DNA of 63,753 nucleotides, filler included, from Rhabdomonas costata (GCA_019059605.1; 43 parts of 43 records of this genome joined end to end with filler, not necessarily neighbours in it); one strand, 5' to 3'; positions 3,909 through 56,722 are shown, counted from the first letter of the whole stretch. Numbers and translations are program-made. The notes: generated by a model from the letters alone, not told the origin.

Positions 3909-5955
3909 CTGTGGGTGTGGCGGTGCGAGTGCACAGCCGATTCGAAAGGGAGAAAACAGAAGAGATGCGTGGTTGACTTCCGGCCCTTTCAAAACAGATC
4001 AGCACTCGCAGTGTGTTCTTTACACCTTACCACGCATCTTCCTGTGCTGACGGTCAATTTTGTGACTGAACCACGGTGTGCCTTCCACTCAATCTCTGCC
4101 TTGCAAAACAAATTCGGCATTGAGTACGGGGAAACAATCCGTGACCTCAAACTATGCATATTGAAGAAAATCGGAAAGCAGTCCGTATCCAGCATTTACG
4201 ATTTCATGGTGGCACGGATGAATTGGGTTTACAATGTGCCGCATGCTCGATTTCCAAGTGCCCAACGTTCCCAGAAAACGGAGCCCATGACTCGCTCCCA
4301 TTGCCTCGCTGACCCACTAACAACTTGCTGCACCCGTTCCCTTTACAGAGCAAAGTTTNNNNNNNNNNNNNNNNNNNNNNNNNNNNNNNNNNNNNNNNNN
4401 NNTTAATTAATTAANNNNNNNNNNNNNNNNNNNNNNNNNNNNNNNNNNNNNNNNNNNNTTCGTATGTGGTTGGTGATGGTGGTTGGTGTAGAAGGAATTT
4501 CGTAGAGCTTCGTATTAGATAGCAGAAGATTTCGTTGTGTTGGACGAAGAGTTGAGTTGTCTTTGTTGTTGTGTGTTGTTACCTTTCAGGTGGAGCAGAG
4601 AGTACTTTCGCTAACGAGCTACCTTCTTTGTCGTTGGTGTTGTCGCAGCGGGACTTTGAGCAGTGGACAGTGCTGTTGTGGAGGTGGAGTGCTGTGTTGT
4701 TTCTCATGGTGTGAATGCTTTTCGTAAAGAGAAGGGGAAGTTCGTATCGTATAAAGTTAATCTTTCTTGTGGTAAGAATCGTTCAGCTAGAAGAGCTGAG
4801 CCGTTGGAGTGATCGGACGTCGGAGGCAGATGGCATCCTCCGTCCTAGCAGGGGAGAGTGTAACGGCTCAGCATACGTAGGAAGAACGTTTTGTAGTAGA
4901 AATAAAAGAGACAGCTTGGTGAGCCAGACAAGATTTTCGTAGTAGCTTGGAAGCTTGGTTAGTCTCAGAATTTGGTAAGGAGCTCATAGGAGATCGTTTT
5001 AAAGAGCAGAGATCAATTAAGGCTTTGAAGGTGTTCAAGAAATTCGTAGATCAGTGCGAGAGCAGTGGAGAAGCAAGTGTGGAAAGCAGATTTCTCAAAG
5101 GAGATGTTTAAGAAAGAGAGAGTTTTAGGAGCAGAGGCGGTCAAGCTGAAGCTTTGAGCAGAGTGCTGGCAGCGAAGGTGGCGGAAAACAAGAAGGAGAA
5201 GGCGCAGGAGGACGGTGCTGAGGAGAGCCGTTCCGTAGGACGACGTTGTGGTGGACAAGGCCGCAGAGCTGAGCACAAGACGAGTTGGCCGCGCAGTTCT
5301 GGAGAAGTTGAGCGAGAAGGCCGTGGAAAGCAGCCCCGGGAGGACAGGAATGGGGCGGCAAAGTGCAGCAGGCGGCGTGTTGAGGCAGCAAGGCACCGGC
5401 CAGCAGCGCCAGTTGAGGAGAAGTCCTTGGAAAAGCGCAGTGGGACCCCAGTGCAGGAGGGCAAGCTGACGAGAAGAAGCAGAGCGGGACGAGAAGCTGA
5501 AGAAGAACAACCCCGCTAGAGGAGAGGCAGCCCGAAGTCGAGGTCAGCGCAGAGGAAAGGAAGGCATGGCAAAGAAAGAGAAAAGAGAAGAGCAGCCCGA
5601 GCCAAAAAGGACAGAAAAGCCAGAAGCAGAGAGCGAGAGCATATATCAGGAGAGAGGAAAGTGGGACAAAGGAGGCCGAAGCGGAGAGAAAGAGAGGCAG
5701 CGAGAAGCAGGAATAAAAAGGGAGGGAGCAAAAGAGAAGCAAAAGAGCCAGCAGTAGCAGCAGTCAAAAGGCGGAGTTTGAGCAAAAAGACGAGCGAAAG
5801 AGAAGCCAGGAGGCAAAGGGAAGGGCAGCCCGAGCCAAAAAACACNNNNNNNNNNNNNNNNNNNNNNNNNNNNNNNNNNNNNNNNNNNNTTAATTAATTA
5901 ANNNNNNNNNNNNNNNNNNNNNNNNNNNNNNNNNNNNNNNNNNNNGGGGTTTGGG

Positions 5956-6819
5956 TCATATGTCTATGTTTAGGTCTTTTCTAGTAGATGGCATATTAAA
6001 CATAAATTTTTTACTGACCTTTAGCTTTATACCTGGGAAAGTACAGAAAGCCTGTTTGTGCTTAATCAGTTGCACAACACGAAACAAACTTGATTCGTTG
6101 AACATGTCATGAACTTGTATCTGAAACAAAGAATTCCGAATCTGAAACAAAGGATCTCGACTCGAATTAGATTCTTTCTTAAGTTCTTTCACAAATTCTT
6201 TCTCATTTATGCAGTTCTTCAAAGTTCGAAAGTATCTAATCGTATCGTCTGGAATAATCATCTCTTGCTTTGCATTGTTTTTCGACAGATACAATGCATT
6301 ACACATGAAATCAATATTGTCTGATTTCTCGAAGATGATATCAATCTTTATGTAAATCTTGTTGTAACACAACATAAGTTGTGCTCCACCATTTCCAGCA
6401 TATGGTGTCGTTTTCAAGAGATAAATCTTTGTTTTGTCTTCTTGGAATTCCGTGAAGCTTTTAATCGTTTTTGTGCATGCTTCTTCAATCCATTTGTGAG
6501 AACGACCACGTATCGTCATATCATCATCATCTCTGATTTGATTACGTTTGTCAATCAGTTCCTGTGATGCCACGAGATCAATATCATGAGGACAAGTGTC
6601 ATTAATCAGATCACGGATTGACCCACCGAAACAAGTAAATCCATGATTTAGGAACACCGTCATACATTGTATGTATGTTTGTTTTATGTTTATGTTACTC
6701 GTTGAATCAGTATGAACGAGTTTGTACAAGTTTTTGCATGTCATGCATAACTTGAAAAACGACGTAAAGTCCAGACAACTCGAAATCTCAGTGATGAGAT
6801 CAACAGGCAACTTGTTCAT
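5956..6819 (-). CDS. F-box domain fused to a class II (CCA-adding/poly(A) polymerase head-like) nucleotidyltransferase; intronless and AT-rich
   Basis: N-terminal LPVDLITEISSCLDFTSFFKLCMTCKNLYKL fits the F-box pattern; FGGSIRDLINDTCPHDIDL fits GGxxRD...DxD; KIDII supplies the third Asp; DFMCNALY resembles DFTxNA. Confidence 0.85.
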   Translation of the reverse strand: MNKLPVDLITEISSCLDFTSFFKLCMTCKNLYKLVHTDSTSNINIKQTYIQCMTVFLNHGFTCFGGSIRDLINDTCPHDIDLVASQELIDKRNQIRDDDDMTIRGRSHKWIEEACTKTIKSFTEFQEDKTKIYLLKTTPYAGNGGAQLMLCYNKIYIKIDIIFEKSDNIDFMCNALYLSKNNAKQEMIIPDDTIRYFRTLKNCINEKEFVKELKKESNSSRDPLFQIRNSLFQIQVHDMFNESSLFRVVQLIKHKQAFCTFPGIKLKVSKKFMFNMPSTRKDLNIDI

Positions 6820-6905
6820 TTTTCGTATTTTTTAGATCGATGAATCAAGCTTGATTGAATTTTATTTATTATAAGAATATATTGATTTAGTAAAGTATTA
6901 CTTTT

Positions 6906-6913
6906 TCAATTTT
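6906..6913 (-). promoter_or_regulatory. AAAATTGA Mimiviridae-type early promoter motif upstream of the F-box/NTase gene
   Basis: Plus-strand tcaatttt; correct orientation, about 87 nt upstream of the ATG at 6819, in a 160-nt AT-rich divergent intergenic region. Confidence 0.6.
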
Positions 6914-6979
6914 TTAAATATATAAAAAATTATTTTTCGTCATACATATCTTTATTTATTTCCATAATTATGTATAGAG

Positions 6980-7330
6980 ATGTATTTTAAATTAGGTATT
7001 CGATCAAAAAATAATATTAAAAAAATTCATAGACTTCCTGTTGTAAACAAAAAAGATAATAAAAATAATAAAATAGTTGTGTTACCTCCAGAAGATGATT
7101 ATATTTTATTTCGTACTAAATTTCAAAATTATAAACAACTTTATAATAATAAAATACCAAAGATTATATGGTCATATTGGAATGGATCAGAACCGCCAAA
7201 AATTGTAGATTATTGTATTCAAAATTGGAAAATTTTCGCTCCTAATTATGAAATTAATTTTCTTGATGATACAACTATTTTAAAATATATTTCTCCACCC
7301 CCAAATTTTCATAGTTTAACACCAACAAAG
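6980..7330 (+). CDS. Glycosyltransferase, GT32/capsular polysaccharide synthesis-like (5' part, truncated by contig end)
   Basis: KIPKIIWSYWNG...PKIVDYCIQNWKIFAPNYEINFLDD matches the N-terminal signature of DXD-type GT32/Caps_synth proteins. Confidence 0.85.
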
Positions 7331-45257: not shown

Positions 45258-46183
45258 TGGTGTGCGGACGATATTTTTCATGCGGTTGTGTGCAGTCATT
45301 GATTCGTGCATTCAGTTTTTCCCTTCCCCTCCCCTTCATACTTCACTCTCCGCCTTCCAAAGGTTACGTCCATCTGTGTTATCACTTTGCCCAGCTGGTA
45401 GAGGTTGCGTTGACAGGAAATCCTCTTTTGCCGTTCTGGGGTGTCTTCCTGCAGCACCGCACCGAGCTATCCTCCTCTGCGGGTCTTCGGACCCACACCA
45501 ATCATCAGGAGTCACGCCGGGAATGGGGATAGGACCACTTTCTTCTGCTGAAGTCTTCACCCATTTTGCTGGGCGATTTCCGACTTGGGCCCACTGGGTA
45601 CCATAACTTGAGCTTGACGGCTGGTTGGGGCCGATACTTTGTGGGATGGTGGTACACTTCTGAGTTGAGTTGTTTTTTTTGGCGGCTTCCTGAAATGTGG
45701 TATCTCTTTGCACAGTGCCTATCCTCCCATCCTCTCCCAATGACTTCGGTTCCACCCCCACACCCCCTGATACTTTGCATTTTCTCCTCTCAGCCTTTGC
45801 ACCCACGTGTAATTTATTGTATCGTTTTTTGCCGGAAAAATAGGCACCCGCTTGTGGGGGCATGCCCTGTTGGAACCCATCCTGTACTGAAAGCACGTAA
45901 AGAAAGAGGGACATTGAGCGTTTCTGACATTTCACCAAACAANNNNNNNNNNNNNNNNNNNNNNNNNNNNNNNNNNNNNNNNNNNNTTAATTAATTAANN
46001 NNNNNNNNNNNNNNNNNNNNNNNNNNNNNNNNNNNNNNNNNNGTGGTGTTAATAAAGTTATGATTATTTAATTATATATCTTAAATAATGTTTGAGATAT
46101 ATAAGTAAAGCGATCTGCTCAGCGGAGTGCTGCTGAGCAGATCGCTCTACTTATATATCTCAAACATTATTTAAGATATATAA

Positions 46184-46504
46184 TTAAATAATCATAACTT
46201 TATTAACACCACATGCAAGTTTATTTAATAGCCAATAAAATGGATACATTATTAAATAGTAAATAAAGAATGTAGATATAAATCCAATTTTCCATGTAAA
46301 ATCAGGTTCAGGTGCATTACATCCAGCAGTTGTAAATACACGACGAAATCTATCATAATAATTTATTTTATTTTTTCTTACATAAAAAAAATAAATAGGT
46401 ACAAATAGACTTATATTAAATGGATGTATGGGAACAAATGGCATCATTGCCGGTGGGAGAAAACAAAATAATTTAGCAAGATATTTAACTGCTTTCGTTG
46501 CCAT
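46184..46504 (-). CDS. Small hydrophobic protein of unknown function (106 aa), intronless and AT-rich
   Basis: Complete ORF with two hydrophobic stretches, divergent from the 46593 ORF across 88 nt. Confidence 0.65.
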   Translation of the reverse strand: MATKAVKYLAKLFCFLPPAMMPFVPIHPFNISLFVPIYFFYVRKNKINYYDRFRRVFTTAGCNAPEPDFTWKIGFISTFFIYYLIMYPFYWLLNKLACGVNKVMII

Positions 46505-46529
46505 TATTATACTACTATAACAAGTAAAA

Positions 46530-46537
46530 AAAATTGA
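46530..46537 (+). promoter_or_regulatory. AAAATTGA Mimiviridae-type early promoter motif
   Basis: Exact octamer, correct orientation, about 55 nt upstream of the ATG at 46593. Confidence 0.65.
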
Positions 46538-46592
46538 AAATTATATTATTTATAATTATATAAATAATTACAAAACAGAATAAACTATTAAA

Positions 46593-47427
46593 ATGTCTCT
46601 TGAATCACATATGCAATATCATAATGCATACAAAAAAGATATTGTCGGATTTATCTGTCGTGATTTCTTCAATAAAGAATGTACATGCGCATATCATCCA
46701 TATACAAAGATATATTTTAATATTGCATCTCTAGATGATATGAATACAATTGAAAAATATTATAAAAATAAACATGAAATTGAAATTTGTGACAAATGTT
46801 TTGACTGTAATGACATGAATTGTATAAAAATTCATTTGTATGATGAATCTATAGCTTGTCGTTCTTTTATTATTATAGATGATATTAATGATGTTGAAAT
46901 TGTAAAGAAATATGCACATTGGATGGATGTAAATGAAACGAAACCAATTATAAATTTCTGTCTTGATAAAACAAAAACTGTACAATGTACTTCAAATGTT
47001 TTTTTTAAAGAAAATACATGTGTATCATATATCGATGAATACAATATGTATAACATTATTAAAAAGAAAATTATAAGTCATATTGAAAAAAATAAATCTG
47101 AACTAAAAACACAAACAGCTATCAACAATACAAAACAAGAAATACAATCAAAAAATGATGATAAATCAAAAGATAGTGATGATAAATCATCAAAAGATAG
47201 TGATGATAAATCATCACAAGATAATATTTTAGATGATGAAACATCTAAAAATACTGAATTATCATTATCACATGATCCATATATGTTGAATATTGAAGAC
47301 AGAGATAATATTGATAGATATATGGATACAATGTGGTTAATTAATGATAGAAATGTCATTGCACGACAAATTTTGAATTATGAATATACTTATCAACCAG
47401 AATTTATAGAACAAAGTTTAATGTCAG
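46593..47427 (+). CDS. Cys/His-rich protein of unknown function with a D/K/S repeat (3' truncated), intronless and AT-rich
   Basis: 278 open codons in very AT-rich DNA; clusters CRDFFNKECTCAYH and CDKCFDCNDMNCIKIH; three copies of GATGATAAATCA(TCA)AAAGATAGT near 47156-47224. Confidence 0.8.
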
Positions 47428-50058: not shown

Positions 50059-50497
50059 CTATATTTTTTTTTCGTTTTATGACGGGGAGAAGAGCACGGA
50101 GGCCGGACCACAGCTGTCCTAGGGATGTCTTTGGCGTGGTTGACAACGCGCACTGAAACAAACATGAGCTTCCCAGGAAAAAATCGACACCGCGAATCTA
50201 CGAGTTTAGCGAGCTCGAGCTCAAAGGAAGGTACAGCGTCTAAGTCAGCTTCAGCCAACCGTAACCAGAACAAAGGTACAAAGGTCACGCTCAACCACAT
50301 TTTTTAAACTAGAGGCGGGGGGACCTGGACAAACGGACAGTGCCTGTCTCTCGCTCCTCAACCCCCTCCCTCCGCGTCCACCCTTTTCTGCCCTCTNNNN
50401 NNNNNNNNNNNNNNNNNNNNNNNNNNNNNNNNNNNNNNNNTTAATTAATTAANNNNNNNNNNNNNNNNNNNNNNNNNNNNNNNNNNNNNNNNNNNNT

Positions 50498-51881
50498 GGA
50501 TTATATGCACATAGTCCAATCATGAAAACTGATAATTTCAATGTTACGTCAATTATAACATTATTACAATGTTTCTATCCAATTATAAGTCTATATTCCG
50601 ACATAGCTTTTATAAATATTAGTGTTGATAATATATGGTCGGTATATTATAATGCAAATTATGATATTTATTTACATCAAAATAAGAAAACTATATATAT
50701 ATATACAGTACATATAATACGGAAAATTATAACATATCTAATTATTATTTAGTACATCCTGAAACAGGAGAAATATTTGATAAAGTATATACATATGAAT
50801 GTATATTTGATAAATGTAATATAACTACATATTTATATAATATAAATTTATTACATAAAATAAAACCGGATAATATTACTAAAAATACAGTTGAAATTTT
50901 TAATAGAAACACAAATAATATATCAGTAAGAATAAATTATAATTTATATAACACATATACTACATTATCAATGATATATAATAATAATATAATACTATGT
51001 AATGGTGTTAATTATACAGAATCATCATCATTCAATATCATTGCTGATAATTTTAATTTTAGTACAAATTTGATAAATACATGGCTAAAAGATAATTACA
51101 ATACAAAAAAATATTTTAGAAATGAAGTTACATTTGATAATTTGTATTTATCAATAAGTACATATGATGCAAAAACAAAAATATATTTTAATATATTATA
51201 CAGTTATTATGATGTTCAAAATGATATGTATAATTTTAAATTAACGACAAATAATATTATTGATACAAGTAATAAAAAATCATTAATTATATTAATTGTA
51301 ACAATTGTAATTACATGTGTATTATCAATATTAATAATTTATACATTGTCTACTTCATTATACAAATTAGCAAATAATATAAACATGATAGCTTTATTAC
51401 AATACGATGATCATAATTATAAACAATATCATTCGTTTTTTTCTGAATTTTCAGCTTGTGAAACATCTTTAAAAAGATTAGAACGTGGAACACGAGCATT
51501 TAGTATGTATATACCTTTACAAATAGTTAGATTTATGTTAGCAGGTACAATAGATACGTCATATGTAATGATAAATACAAGAACAACAATAATGTTTTCT
51601 GATATTATTGGATATACAACATTATGTGAGAAAATAGAATTACATGATTTAATGATTATGACAAATAAATATTTTGATATTATGTGTAAAATAATAAATG
51701 ATTCAAAAGGAATTATAGACAAATTTATAGGTGATTGTATTATGGTAATGTGGAATCCAGTATTTGTTTCAAATCAAGAAGTTGCTTCTTGTAATGTTGC
51801 ATTACAAATGCAATATGATATGCTTAATTTAAACAATGAATTTACAAAAATAGATTTACCGAATTTTAAATTTAAAATTGG
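50498..51881 (+). CDS. Receptor-type class III adenylyl cyclase (extracellular region, TM, HAMP-like linker, catalytic domain); intronless, extremely AT-rich, one frameshift at a (TA)n run near 50692-50705
   Basis: TM LIILIVTIVITCVLSILIIYTL; AFSMYIP; TIMFSDIIGYTTLCE; IDKFIGDCIMVMWNP has the second metal Asp and the ATP-selecting Lys. The contig is open end to end if one TA unit is removed. Confidence 0.9.
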
Positions 51882-53301: not shown

Positions 53302-53894
53302 GTGGGGCCTTTTGTGTGGAACGCTCACGCTCACCGATGGGTGGAGCCTTTCTTCGAGACTGACAANNNNNNNNNNNNNNNNNNNNNNNNNNNNNNNNNN
53401 NNNNNNNNNNTTAATTAATTAANNNNNNNNNNNNNNNNNNNNNNNNNNNNNNNNNNNNNNNNNNNNTGTTTTGTGGATCGACTGGGGCAACATTAATTTA
53501 GGTTTGGAGGCCAGCCGCCGCGGCCCGGCAGGGTCGGAGCGGACAGATGAGGCGGGGATGTGCCATGGGGTGTGCAAAAGTTTAACTTTTGGTGCTTAAC
53601 AGTGTAAACGTTTAACACCATTATAAACACCAAAAAAAGTCTTTGCTTTGCAAAAGGGGTGTTTTCCGAGCACGAGAATTAGGTAAAGTGAGCCAGTACC
53701 CACCAAATGATGTCCGAATAGAGGTTAGATTTACTGTTTTACTGTCTCTTACCTCTTAGATGCCGGTAGTTAAGCTTGAGATTTTCGATGGTATTACCCC
53801 CTCCCCCCGAAACAGCAGCCCCATTCACCTGAAGCAAATATGAATGGCAGCAGGGTATTGGATTTCCGGCGAGCTGCAGCTCAAACAAATAAAG

Positions 53895-54132
53895 GGGTCT
53901 GAAGGCCTTTGTGAAGTACGTGCCCCGGGAGGTGGTGCGGATGACGCTGAACGGGGAGCTGGGGTCCACAAACGTGATGGTGCGGCGGGTGGTATCGATG
54001 CTGTTCATGGACATCGCGGGGTTCAGCGGGCTGTGCGAGGCGATCGATGCTGAGCAGCTGATGCGGCTAACGCAGGACTACCTCAGCGCGATGTGCGAGA
54101 TCATTGTGAAGTCGGGCGGGACGCTGGACAAG
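53895..54132 (+). CDS. Class III adenylyl cyclase catalytic-domain exon (host type, GC-rich)
   Basis: GLKAFVKYVPREVV...SMLFMDIAGFSGLCE...IIVKSGGTLDK|GT. Confidence 0.92.
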
Positions 54133-56722
54133 GTGTGGGCATCCTGCTCTCTGAAGCACCTCAGAAGCAGATTTCGAGCCGGTGGCCATGAGAGATTTCC
54201 CCCCGCCCGTCATTTGTCGTCACAAAAGTATTCCGCAGCTCGTTTCTGTCTGTCGCGTCAGACCCGTTTTCGACAGCGGGATGAAGCAAGAAGTTTAGTG
54301 CGCAAGCGAAGGACAGAAAAAGGTGACTGCAGATACCTCCTGACCGGTGCAACGCTGTGATTCCAAGCCCTTCGTGGGCAGGGGCTCTGCTGGGGATGCC
54401 TCTGATCGCTGGTCGGCAACGCGAGTTTGGGTTGTTCAGAGTTAAAGTCGCACAATTAATGGCACGCACATGTAAGCACACTTTCACACCTCAGGCTGGA
54501 AGTCAAGTTGGGTCCTCCAGGCTAGTCGGAGGAAGATGATGAATGCCTTGCTCCCCAAGGAATTCTGGCCGTGATATGATTGCCATCGTGAATTGAACGG
54601 TCCGCTGACACTCTGGGTCCGAACACTCACTGAGGCCTGAAGATATCATTGCTGCCCACTTGCACATATGAAGAAAAAGCCCAATAGTTGCCCAGACACC
54701 CAAAGAAGGAGGACGGATTCCCACCCACAGACCTGAGACGCAGTCGAGCAGCGCGGTAGCCGGTGGAAAAGGGTACTTGCACGACAACGACGAACGACAC
54801 ACCCTCGCACCCTCCAACGCACCCACACCTCCCATCCCACACCCCACACANNNNNNNNNNNNNNNNNNNNNNNNNNNNNNNNNNNNNNNNNNNNTTAATT
54901 AATTAANNNNNNNNNNNNNNNNNNNNNNNNNNNNNNNNNNNNNNNNNNNNGGTGGGGGTGGAATGGTATGTCCCTCTCGGCCCTGCATTTCTTTGGGCCC
55001 ACATTGACCGGCGGGAGAAGGGTTAACGAGAAACAGAATTAATATCCGTTTTGGGCCCCCTTTTTATTTCGAGTGTGGTCAATTACCAAAAGAAACCTAT
55101 TAAATGAAAACTATTGACAATGGTGCCGTTCTCGGGATGAAACATATGACTTTCAGAACTGTCGTTGTAAAGCAGCCAAACAGAGAGGAGAGAGGGAGGG
55201 AGAGAGAGAGAGGAGGGGGCTCCCGCACACCTTGGAATCCACGAACTTGCTCATGGAGCGATTCGAAAGGAAGCAGCACAGCATGCCAGAGCTGGTACCA
55301 CAGAACACTGCTCCTTTGCTGTTAATACATGGCACAACACAGAGAATTACACAAAGAGCAGGCCAACCGGGAGCAGGGCGGGCTGATGACGGCGGCTGGC
55401 TTCAAGAATCAACGAGACGTGGCTACAAATGCAGAGGATGACAGGGTGTCTGAATTGAAAAAGGTGCTTACCAAGCTCACTGTTGGACAGGACATGGACT
55501 TCAGAAACCAGCTCCGTAGAGTTACACAACTTCACTGCCTGGCCGGGCCTGCTCATAAGCAGCGAAAGAGATGGTGCCCAATCGTAATGCCACCGAAAGG
55601 CACTGTGGAATGAATGAGAATGAGCAAGCATGCCTTTGAGAAGAGCAGTCACTCTGCACGTCTGCAAACACAACGTCTTTGAAGGAGCTTGGCAGGAAGG
55701 CAGGCTTGCCCTCCAGAGACAGCACCACAGAGGGCGGTACCCCTCCGCCGAGGTAAACCTCGCACTGTGGAGGGCAAGCAGAGGGGCAAGAAGAAACAAA
55801 AAAAAGTATGAATCAAGACGAGATCGCTCAGAAAAATCGTCCTGATCGTTTGGGAAATGCTGCCCGAAATTGGAGTGATTGCACAGCAATAACATTGCAA
55901 GTAATTAACCCAGGGTAAAAAAACAAGCAGCGGCTTGCCCCCAAGGCAAGCCATTGCTGGAATTCACATAAGTTGTCAGATACCTTTCCTGTGCCACAGG
56001 AGCAAGCGCATATGAGAGACGAGAAAAGCTGCACCGGAGCTGAAGCACTCCTCCCATATGTCCAAGGGTCAACTCGATGAGCTGAGGTTAGACGCTAGAG
56101 CAGTATGTAATGTGGGAGAAGCAGGAATATGATTGCTGAAGAGAAGAGGTGATGTATCAGTTTGGAGGAGAATGACAACAGAGGAAGAGCACACAGGACC
56201 TTTTGCACGAGACATTTATATAGAAACAGCACGCAAGCAAAAGGTCCTGTGTGCTCTTCCTCTGTTGTCATTCTCCTCCAAACTGATACATCACCTCTTC
56301 TCTTCAGCAATCATATTCCTGCTTCCCCCACACANNNNNNNNNNNNNNNNNNNNNNNNNNNNNNNNNNNNNNNNNNNNTTAATTAATTAANNNNNNNNNN
56401 NNNNNNNNNNNNNNNNNNNNNNNNNNNNNNNNNNTGTGTTGGGTGTGGTTGTTTGGGGCATAGCTACCTATTGCCTGGCTGACCGTTGACCACTATCGAC
56501 TTACGGGCGTGATGTTGGTTTGGGTGCTCGCTGGAGATACCGTCGCAGCGCACGATGTGCGTGCGTATATGTGTGTGGATGGAGCAACTGCACGGCATAA
56601 ATACAACAACACGAGAGAACTGCACCGCGCACGGTTCCGCATGAACTCAAATTCCTACCAATTGAGGGCATTGTAGAGTGCTGCGTGGCCGGACCGTGGG
56701 TATGGGAGGAGGAGGGACAAGC

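What the first reader, a model, noticed from the sequence alone, without database searches (positions are those of the whole stretch)
50497..51881. Intronless, extremely AT-rich copy of the host's receptor adenylyl cyclase: candidate giant-virus capture of a cAMP receptor
Seen: this contig encodes a sensor-TM-HAMP-cyclase protein with no introns at roughly 20% GC (by eye). Its segment GTRAFSMYIP...IIDK aligns without gaps to the GC-rich, intron-bounded host exon at 53895-54132 (31 of 79 residues identical by my manual count), including the normally variable linker and the LCE/LM/MCxII details. Both metal-binding Asp residues and the adenine-selecting Lys are intact. Known: NCLDVs acquire host genes, lose the introns and drift to viral AT content. 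Inference: with the two other virus-like contigs, this suggests a virus carrying a host-derived surface receptor cyclase able to rewire host cAMP signalling. A second AT-rich organism is the main alternative.
Basis: partly seen in the sequence, partly recalled or inferred. Interest (0 to 1): 0.85.

Follow-up and report, generated by a model that had tools for sequence, protein, structure and literature searches.

The report
AT-rich intronless euglenid-type receptor cyclase
A short, extremely AT-rich contig in a GC-rich euglenid assembly carries an intron-free, very diverged copy of the euglenids' own membrane receptor adenylyl cyclase, most likely on giant-virus-derived DNA, though nothing on the contig itself proves a virus.

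Summary
The window is 43 contigs of about 1385 bp joined by N spacers. Contig 50497-51881 has 20.2% GC, against 49-58% for 40 of the others. It is essentially one ORF, 398 codons open, with one frame break in a (TA)7 run. It encodes ectodomain, TM, linker and the N-terminal half of a class III cyclase. It matches the host exon at 32/80 residues without gaps.

That identity alone is not host-specific, because bacterial cyclases reach 39-40% over the same segment. Phylogeny does link it to euglenids. Of 1.84 billion proteins, the best organism-named hits are Euglena. It falls in a 13-row euglenid clade (98/90), next to the host exon (98/95). Nested versus sister is unresolved (AU p 0.21).

Viral origin is plausible but indirect. 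GC3 is 0.10 against 0.90 for the host exon, two host intron positions are absent, and the two other AT-rich contigs look like Nucleocytoviricota. Euglena gracilis is reported to carry giant endogenous viral elements of 25-37% GC (PMC12455990). HAMP was not detected. The contig has no viral hallmark gene and no close relative in the viral or metagenome scans.

The parts
50497..51881 (+). AT-rich contig (1385 bp, 20.2% GC), coding over its whole length and open at both ends
50498..50749 (+). Upstream part of the ectodomain, read in frame 2 (84 aa, P0001). It has a weak, colinear match to positions 138-174 of the euglenid family profile.
   Evidence: (E 0.0036 in a search of 3 sequences, 3.3 bits)
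50692..50705 (+). (TA)7 run where the reading frame changes from frame 2 to frame 1. This is either an assembly or sequencing length error in the repeat, or a real frameshift (erosion).
   Evidence: Both frames are open across 50686-49, and the homology passes from one frame to the other here.
50686..51880 (+). Main ORF, 398 codons (P0002), with no stop before the contig end. GC3 is 0.10.
   Evidence: shuffled maximum 106 aa
51280..51348 (+). Transmembrane segment, aa 199-221 (23 uncharged, hydrophobic residues)
   Evidence: read directly from the sequence. It lies inside a long predicted helix at 174-237, pLDDT 73-90 around 190-230.
51349..51582 (+). Juxtamembrane linker, aa 222-299. It comprises about 45 aa with a HAMP-like position but no Pfam HAMP match, followed by the conserved ERG-x-x-AF-x-x-Y(I/V)P helix that leads into the cyclase.
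   Evidence: R267, G268, A271, F272, P277 invariant
51583..51880 (+). N-terminal half of the class III cyclase catalytic domain (Pfam PF00211 positions 9-95 of 183). D306 is at 51601-51603, K346 at 51721-51723, D350 at 51733-51735.
53895..54132 (+). GC-rich host exon of a paralogous euglenid receptor cyclase (GC3 0.90), bounded by AG and GT. It is 61-63% identical to P0085 and P0266.
5946..7330 (.). AT-rich contig with two diverging genes: an F-box plus nucleotidyltransferase-like gene (5959-6828, minus strand) and the start of a Caps_synth glycosyltransferase (6980-7330, plus strand). AAAATTGA sits at 6906-6913 (minus strand) in the 151-nt spacer.
46043..47427 (.). AT-rich contig with two diverging ORFs (46187-46504 minus strand; 46593-47426 plus strand). 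AAAATTGA sits at 46530-46537 (plus strand) in the 88-nt spacer. An 81-nt inverted repeat lies at the contig start.

Best explanation
The contig is a fragment of foreign, extremely AT-rich DNA. Its most likely source is a giant virus (Nucleocytoviricota), either free in the culture or endogenised in the euglenid's genome. It carries an intronless, long-ameliorated homologue of the euglenid receptor-type class III adenylyl cyclase family.

The protein would be a membrane receptor with four parts: a diverged extracellular sensor domain, one transmembrane helix, a helical linker of about 75 residues, and a class III catalytic domain that must dimerise to make cAMP from ATP.

Shown:
- family membership
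- the TM-linker-cyclase architecture
- three intact catalytic residues
- absence of two host intron positions
- foreign composition

Inferred:
- viral carrier
- transfer from host to virus
- catalytic competence (the C-terminal half of the domain is missing)
- a role in resetting host cAMP during infection

The single frame break in a (TA)7 run may mean the copy is an eroding endogenous one, or it may be an assembly error.
For: Family:
- phmmer against 1.84e9 representatives gave a best hit of E 3.4e-37 at 38% identity. Five of the six organism-named proteins in the top 10 are Euglena gracilis, E. longa or E. mutabilis.
- A profile built only from euglenid-clade sequences hits frame 1 at E 6e-66.
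- Careful ML tree, 40 rows and 224 columns: a 13-row euglenid clade at 98/90 and a 4-row clade with the host exon at 98/95. The same 13-row clade appears in the quick trees of 74 and 90 rows (SH-aLRT 96 and 97).

Foreign and intronless:
- GC is 20.2% against 49-58%. GC3 is 0.10 against 0.90 for the host exon.
- The ORF reads through both exon borders of the host paralogue.
- The 398-codon ORF compares with a shuffled maximum of 106 aa.

Viral context:
- Three of the 4 ORFs examined on the two other AT-rich contigs share GC3 of 0.09-0.13.
- The F-box/NTase protein's three nearest Atlas clusters (0.95, 0.94, 0.93) are 100% viruses, most commonly Nucleocytoviricota.
- The Caps_synth fragment is 52% identical over aa 58-105 to a gene on a 35-kb IMG/VR contig whose sugar-modifying enzymes and zinc-finger/RING-like ORFs look giant-virus-like by eye.
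- Spacers are 88 and 151 nt between diverging genes. Each holds AAAATTGA in the orientation of a flanking gene (P of at least 2 by chance is 0.0017).

Literature: E. gracilis holds eight giant endogenous viral elements of 86-311 kb, 25-37% GC against about 51% for the host, with coding density above 90% (PMC12455990, section 4 parts 1-2 read).
Against: - The contig has no viral hallmark gene, intergenic region or junction. Its link to the virus-like contigs is composition only.
- One neighbouring ORF on a virus-like contig has GC3 of 0.39, so composition is not uniform.
- Scans of viral contigs and metagenome contigs with this protein found no relative.
- In the profile scans the best viral or metagenome cyclases are 31-37% identical.
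- 20% GC is below the 25-37% reported for Euglena GEVEs. Those are Asfuvirales, whereas AAAATTGA is (from recall) a Mimiviridae motif.
- The host species is not established. The best named match of the host exon is 63%.
- The AU test does not reject the query lying outside the euglenid clade as its sister (p 0.213).
- The protein's letter make-up is flagged as deviant by the tree tool.
- The frame break may mean the gene is dead.
Confidence: 0.55

Rival explanations
1. The contig comes from a second, AT-rich cellular eukaryote in the sample, such as a parasite, prey or co-cultured protist. That organism either has its own version of this cyclase family or acquired one.
For: - The contig has no viral marker.
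- The family also occurs in other protists: Mastigamoeba and Andalucia are among the top 20 hits.
- A sister position to the euglenid clade is not rejected.
- At least one published euglenid draft came from non-axenic, amplified DNA (PMC8219788, passages only).
Against: - The 13-row euglenid clade has 98/90 support, and the named non-euglenid protists fall outside it.
- Nothing closer than 38% identity exists among 1.84e9 representatives, which include EukProt proteomes.
- The other two AT-rich contigs have giant-virus-like genes and very short spacers.
- I know of no euglenid with about 20% GC (recall).
Confidence: 0.25
2. It is the host's own nuclear gene or pseudogene in an AT-rich region with no viral history, for example a hypermutated paralogue.
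For: - It groups with the host exon's subfamily.
- It has one frame break.
- The assembly gives no linkage information.
Against: - GC3 of 0.10 against 0.90 for the host exon, the one host coding stretch measured.
- A 398-codon ORF survives at a chance stop frequency of about 0.10 per codon, P about 2e-19. That argues for selection in an AT-rich genome, not decay.
- It has no introns where the host paralogue has two.
Confidence: 0.1
3. It is a bacterial contaminant: a dCache-TM-cyclase gene of an AT-rich bacterium.
For: - The word-indexed search returned mostly bacterial dCache_1-cyclase proteins.
- These are 39-40% identical over the exon segment.
Against: - The full HMMER search ranks euglenid proteins first.
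- All sequences with bacterial names, and the bacteria-like groups (unnamed metagenome proteins and 18 IMG/VR cyclases), fall outside the euglenid clade.
- Pfam finds no dCache or HAMP domain.
Confidence: 0.03

Closest known systems
Euglenid receptor-type class III cyclases, for example Euglena gracilis EG_transcript_1227 (P0087), E. longa (P0090), E. mutabilis (P0089), eukprot RCo052278 (P0266) and metagenome protein P0085
   Same: - TM, linker of about 75 aa and cyclase align without large gaps.
- Shared motifs include SE-x-x-x-x-E/Q-x-S-x-x-x-x-ERG-x-x-AF and DKFIGDC.
- 26 columns are invariant.
- They form one clade.
   Different: - Identity is only 22-33% overall and 36-38% over the conserved 210 aa.
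- The ectodomain is barely alignable and about 45 residues shorter.
- GC3 is 0.10 against 0.90 for the host exon.
- It has no introns.
- The C-terminal half of the catalytic domain and the tail are not on the contig.
Giant endogenous viral elements of Euglena gracilis (Jivaji et al., J Virol 2025, PMC12455990)
   Same: AT-rich (25-37% GC), densely coding, foreign DNA inside a euglenid genome of about 51% GC. The paper reports erosion of the elements.
   Different: - Those elements are Asfuvirales.
- Their main text has no occurrence of 'cyclase', and the supplements could not be seen.
- This contig has 20% GC.
- Its host is not shown to be E. gracilis.
- Integration is not shown.
Bacterial dCache_1-TM-cyclase proteins (P0003, P0005, Alphaproteobacteria and others)
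   Same: Same order of sensor, TM, linker of about 47 aa and class III cyclase. The TM-to-cyclase region aligns without gaps at 39% identity.
   Different: They form separate clades. Pfam detects dCache_1 in them but not here.
bPAC, the photoactivated adenylyl cyclase of Beggiatoa (PDB 5mbk)
   Same: It is the best solved-structure match (E 4.5e-12). The handle helix and the first half of the catalytic domain align, including FSD and KFIGDC.
   Different: bPAC is a soluble BLUF-regulated enzyme with no membrane sensor.
Phage-encoded class III cyclases, for example Pelagibacter phage HTVC008M 'adenylate/guanylyl cyclase'
   Same: A virus-borne class III catalytic domain, 30% identical over aa 301-393.
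   Different: It is a phage gene of bacterial type. It has no euglenid affinity and the match does not include a receptor part.

Membership tests
Class III nucleotidyl cyclase (Pfam PF00211) | Profile match above the curated cut-off | tested here: met
   28.4 bits against a cut-off of 21.9, aa 300-389, profile positions 9-95 of 183
Class III nucleotidyl cyclase (Pfam PF00211) | Two metal-binding Asp residues and the adenine-selecting Lys | tested here: met
   D306, D350 and K346 are invariant in 12 of 12 family members and align to the FSD and KFIGD motifs of bPAC. The residue roles are recalled from the literature.
Class III nucleotidyl cyclase (Pfam PF00211) | Second specificity residue, and the transition-state Asn and Arg in the C-terminal half | not testable with these tools
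   The contig ends at profile position 95 of 183. No other piece was found in the window.
Euglenid receptor cyclase clade | Phylogenetic placement with named euglenid sequences | tested here: met
   13-row clade at 98/90; 4-row clade with the host exon at 98/95. Quick trees give 96 and 97. Nested versus sister is unresolved (p-AU 0.213).
Euglenid receptor cyclase clade | Homologous extracellular domain | tested here: inconclusive
   The family profile aligns only positions 391-600. There is a weak colinear hit of frame 2 to positions 138-174 (E 0.0036 in a search of 3 sequences). The AF2 model has pLDDT 51 and is unusable.
HAMP domain (PF00672) | Profile match between the TM segment and the cyclase | tested here: not met
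   No HAMP match at E<=1 in P0002 or in any of the 11 clade relatives scanned with it. Only the length and position are HAMP-like.
Nucleocytoviricota genome or endogenous element | Hallmark genes (MCP, PolB, A32, VLTF3 and others) on or linked to the contig | tested here: not met
   The contig is a single cyclase ORF.
Nucleocytoviricota genome or endogenous element | Composition unlike the host, intronless genes and dense coding | tested here: met
   20.2% GC against 49-58%. GC3 is 0.10 against 0.90. There are no introns at two host intron sites.
Nucleocytoviricota genome or endogenous element | Relatives of its genes in known giant viruses | tested here: inconclusive
   Met for neighbouring AT-rich contig 5946-7330. 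Not met for the cyclase itself.
Mimiviridae-type early promoter (AAAATTGA; the motif's meaning is recalled) | Motif in the spacer upstream of genes | not testable with these tools
   The cyclase contig has no intergenic DNA. On the other two AT-rich contigs the motif is present in both spacers (P 0.0017).

The most novel reading that the evidence does not exclude
A giant virus of a euglenid carries a working receptor-type adenylyl cyclase captured from its host lineage. Its AAAATTGA spacers suggest a Mimiviridae-like virus, which would be a different lineage from the Asfuvirales elements published for Euglena gracilis. The virus uses the cyclase to put the infected cell's cAMP, and with it motility, taxis or encystment, under control of an external cue. 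This would be the first receptor cyclase described in the Nucleocytoviricota.
Probability: 0.3. Interest if true: 0.75.

Novelty: new member of a known kind. Interest (0 to 1): 0.5.

Why it matters
Giant viruses are known to pick up host genes, and giant viral elements in Euglena were described in 2025. I found no paper describing a membrane receptor cyclase among their cargo. One search returned no papers and in another the 12 of 35 listed were unrelated. The supplementary gene tables of PMC12455990 could not be read.

If the carrier is viral, the gene points to viral control of cAMP signalling in a protist. It would also be a marker for a second, very AT-rich viral lineage associated with euglenids. 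If it is only a contaminant, it still shows that this cyclase family extends beyond the sampled euglenids.

Tried and rejected
Tools not available:
- No whole genome is held for this window.
So there was no coverage comparison, contig extension or expression test.

Searches that found nothing useful:
- Viral-contig scans with the cyclase, the F-box protein and orf278 found no relatives.
- The metagenome scan with the cyclase found none.
- The genome-contig scan failed twice with a machine error.
- The search for homologous proteins found nothing for the F-box protein.
- The Atlas had no usable hit for orf278.

IMG/VR cyclases:
- 555 of 600 stretches examined were relatives, and the best 80 were kept.
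- Of these, 18 ORFs were put in the tree. None grouped with the query.
- Neighbours of two large contigs (PcfJ, QueF, FecR, RNR) do not look like NCLDV genes.

Trees and models:
- The AF2 model of P0002 with a 12-row alignment had mean pLDDT 51, so no fold search was run.
- The careful tree of 90 rows did not finish in two 300-s runs. I replaced it with a 40-row careful tree whose rows I chose from the quick tree.
- Two long-branch rows (P0121, P0127) were dropped before the 90-row tree.

Readings rejected:
- A ciliate or other alternative genetic code. The ORF has no in-frame stop and Gln is encoded by CAA.
- An organelle origin. The gene content does not fit.

Full report
What the window is. 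The window is not one locus. It is 43 contigs of 1380-1389 bp joined by N44-TTAATTAATTAA-N44 spacers. Forty contigs have 49-58% GC. Three are AT-rich: 5946-7330 (30.1%), 46043-47427 (24.0%) and the target 50497-51881 (20.2%). No Rfam family reaches its threshold anywhere in the window. Linkage, depth and extension could therefore not be examined.

The observation. Frame 1 of the target contig is open for 398 codons (50686-51880, P0002) and runs off the 3' end. In 500 shuffles of the contig the longest ORF was 106 aa. At the contig's base composition a stop is expected about once in 10 codons, so P is about 2e-19 for 398 open codons. Upstream, frame 2 is open from the first base to 50749 (P0001). 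Both frames are open across 50686-50749, which holds a (TA)7 run at 50692-50705. The family alignment passes from one frame to the other at this point without loss of residues. The break therefore looks like a length difference in the dinucleotide repeat, not an intron. Whether it is an assembly error or a real frameshift cannot be told.

Pfam finds the class III cyclase domain at aa 300-389, matching profile positions 9-95 of 183 (28.4 bits, cut-off 21.9). The C-terminal half of the catalytic domain is missing. A 23-residue hydrophobic stretch (aa 199-221) precedes a linker of about 75 residues.

BLASTP against the GC-rich exon at 53893-54132 gives 32/80 identities, no gaps, E 2e-21. The exon is bounded by AG and GT, and tblastn with four close relatives finds no further exon in that contig. 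D306, K346 and D350 are invariant in the family alignment and align to the FSD and KFIGD motifs of bPAC, the best solved-structure match (5mbk, E 4.5e-12). That these are the two metal ligands and the adenine-selecting lysine is recalled knowledge of class III cyclases. 'HAMP' is not confirmed. Pfam reports no HAMP or Cache domain at E<=1 in this protein or in any of the 11 clade relatives scanned with it.

Is the match to the host specific? On its own it is not. Over the same 80 residues the AT-rich protein is 40% identical over 75 residues to P0004 and 39% over 77 to P0003, both ungapped. The host exon is 35-39% identical to bacterial dCache cyclases. The ungapped linker is a family-wide feature.

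The exhaustive search and the trees do tie the protein to euglenids. phmmer against 1.84 billion representatives gave 18,600 hits at E<=1e-3 and only 2 at E<=1e-30. The top ten hits break down as follows:
- Euglena gracilis, two proteins
- E. longa, two proteins
- E. mutabilis, one protein
- Mastigamoeba, one protein
- four unnamed metagenome or Logan proteins

Ranks 11-19 are a mix of bacteria (Pseudobdellovibrio, a 'Candidatus' bacterium), Mastigamoeba, Andalucia and unnamed proteins.

A profile built from 11 clade members without the query hits frame 1 at E 6e-66, profile positions 391-600. Quick ML trees of 74 rows and of 90 rows, the latter including 18 IMG/VR cyclase ORFs, put the query in a 13-row clade with every named Euglena sequence and the host exon (SH-aLRT 96 and 97). 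A careful tree (40 rows that I chose from the quick tree, 224 columns, LG+C20+F+G4) gives that clade 98/90. It gives a 4-row clade of query, host exon, P0085 and P0221 a support of 98/95.

Against this, the AU test does not reject a tree in which the 12 euglenid-clade rows exclude the query (delta lnL 6.12, p-AU 0.213). 'Belongs with the euglenid family' is solid, whereas 'nested inside it', and hence host-to-carrier transfer, is only favoured. The tree tool flags the query's letter make-up as deviant. The host exon fills only 36% of the kept columns and P0221 46-48%.

The host exon's best named matches are eukprot RCo052278 (63%) and RCo005129 (74% over 53% of the exon), plus P0085 (61%). The host is euglenid-like but matches no proteome in the collection closely, and I leave the species open. 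P0221, an unnamed 109-aa prediction from a 1746-bp contig, diverges after the same ...LDK as the host exon. This suggests a conserved intron position that the AT-rich gene lacks.

What carries the gene? The evidence here is indirect. GC3 is 0.10 in the cyclase ORF and 0.90 in the host exon. That is a long-ameliorated foreign gene, not a recent copy, and not a decaying host pseudogene given the intact ORF.

The two other AT-rich contigs have ORFs with GC3 of 0.09, 0.12 and 0.13, and one at 0.39. They look like giant-virus DNA for these reasons:
- Diverging genes are separated by only 151 and 88 nt.
- The F-box plus nucleotidyltransferase-like protein (Pfam F-box 9.5e-7, PolyA_pol 0.0087) has as its three nearest Atlas clusters (0.95, 0.94, 0.93) groups that are 100% viral, most commonly Nucleocytoviricota, some with Gad2.
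- The Caps_synth glycosyltransferase fragment is 52% identical over aa 58-105 to a gene on a 35-kb IMG/VR contig that also encodes sugar-modifying enzymes.
- Each spacer holds AAAATTGA in the orientation of a flanking gene. The expected count for the two spacers is 0.06, so P of at least 2 is 0.0017.

That this octamer is the Mimiviridae early-promoter motif is recalled. It does not occur in the text of the Bodo saltans virus paper.

The literature makes viral DNA in a euglenid assembly unsurprising. Jivaji et al. [quoted passage not shown] They are 86-311 kb, 25-37% GC against about 51% for the host, with coding density above 90% and signs of erosion. They are assigned to Asfuvirales, with one 25%-GC outlier of possibly distinct origin. 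'Cyclase' does not occur in the main text, and its supplementary annotation tables could not be seen.

Evidence against, or missing for, the viral reading:
- The cyclase contig has no hallmark gene and no intergenic DNA.
- Single-protein scans of IMG/VR and of metagenome contigs found no relative.
The best are 31-37% identical. The 18 IMG/VR ones placed in the tree group with bacterial clades. Neighbours of two large IMG/VR contigs look phage-like or bacterial.
- 20% GC is lower than any published Euglena element.
- The motif evidence points to a different viral order from the published one.
- The host is not shown to be E. gracilis.

How it most likely works. By homology with its family and with solved class III cyclases, the product would be a membrane receptor with these parts:
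- an extracellular domain, here highly diverged and about 45 residues shorter than in the Euglena proteins
- one TM helix
- a helical juxtamembrane segment ending in the conserved ERG-x-x-AF-x-x-Y-(I/V)-P element
- a catalytic domain that forms a head-to-tail homodimer with two active sites and converts ATP to cAMP

The three catalytic residues that can be seen are intact. The other three or four lie beyond the contig end. A viral copy expressed in the infected cell would add a cAMP source with its own, diverged, input domain. Which host process it would steer is inference only. If the frame break is real, this copy is inactive.

Novelty. The gene family, host-gene capture by giant viruses, and giant viral elements in Euglena are all known. 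A receptor-type cyclase as viral cargo was not found in my searches. 'adenylate cyclase' + 'giant virus' + 'Nucleocytoviricota' returned 0 papers. 'cyclase' + 'giant virus' + 'cAMP' returned 35 papers, and the 12 listed were unrelated. The one I checked mentions only lycopene cyclase. Phage-borne class III cyclases are annotated. I rate it a new member of a known kind, of moderate interest, limited by a 1.4-kb contig without linkage.

Verdict.

Noticed in passing
window 1-63753: The window is a concatenation of 43 contigs of nearly equal length (1380-1389 bp) with N44-TTAATTAATTAA-N44 spacers. Neighbouring stretches are not physically linked.
   Followed up: yes
window 46043-46212: An 81-nt inverted repeat (99% complementary, 8-nt loop, GC-rich centre in AT-rich DNA) begins at the first base of the contig and overlaps the 3' end of the minus-strand ORF. 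Only 1 of 43 contigs has such a terminal fold-back. It could be an amplification or assembly chimera, or a read-through of a hairpin DNA end.
   Followed up: partly
window 6906-6913 (-) and 46530-46537 (+): AAAATTGA lies in both short spacers between diverging genes of the two other AT-rich contigs. The window total is 10 matches against 4.09 expected. From recall this is the Mimiviridae early-promoter motif, which would not fit the Asfuvirales assignment of the published Euglena viral elements.
   Followed up: partly
window 5959-6828 (-) and 6980-7330 (+): Two adjacent genes on one AT-rich contig differ strongly in GC3. The F-box/nucleotidyltransferase-like gene (nearest clusters are Gad2-bearing Nucleocytoviricota proteins) has 0.39, and the Caps_synth glycosyltransferase has 0.09. 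This suggests genes of different age or origin side by side.
   Followed up: partly
window 46593-47426 (+): A 278-aa ORF with a Cys/His-rich N-terminal part and an acidic Ser/Asp/Lys repeat. It has no Pfam family above cut-off, no Atlas hit and no IMG/VR relative.
   Followed up: partly
P0221 (unnamed 109-aa protein from a 1746-bp contig) compared with window 54130-54134: This predicted protein loses homology right after the same ...LDK as the host exon. The intron position before FIGDC therefore seems conserved between two euglenid-like genomes.
   Followed up: no
L001-L010 (IMG/VR): A tight group of 485-495-aa TM-cyclase genes on IMG/VR contigs of about 30% GC (one contig is 296 kb). In the tree they sit next to a clade that holds a Pseudobdellovibrio protein. 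These 'viral' contigs may be bacterial, or phages of such bacteria.
   Followed up: partly
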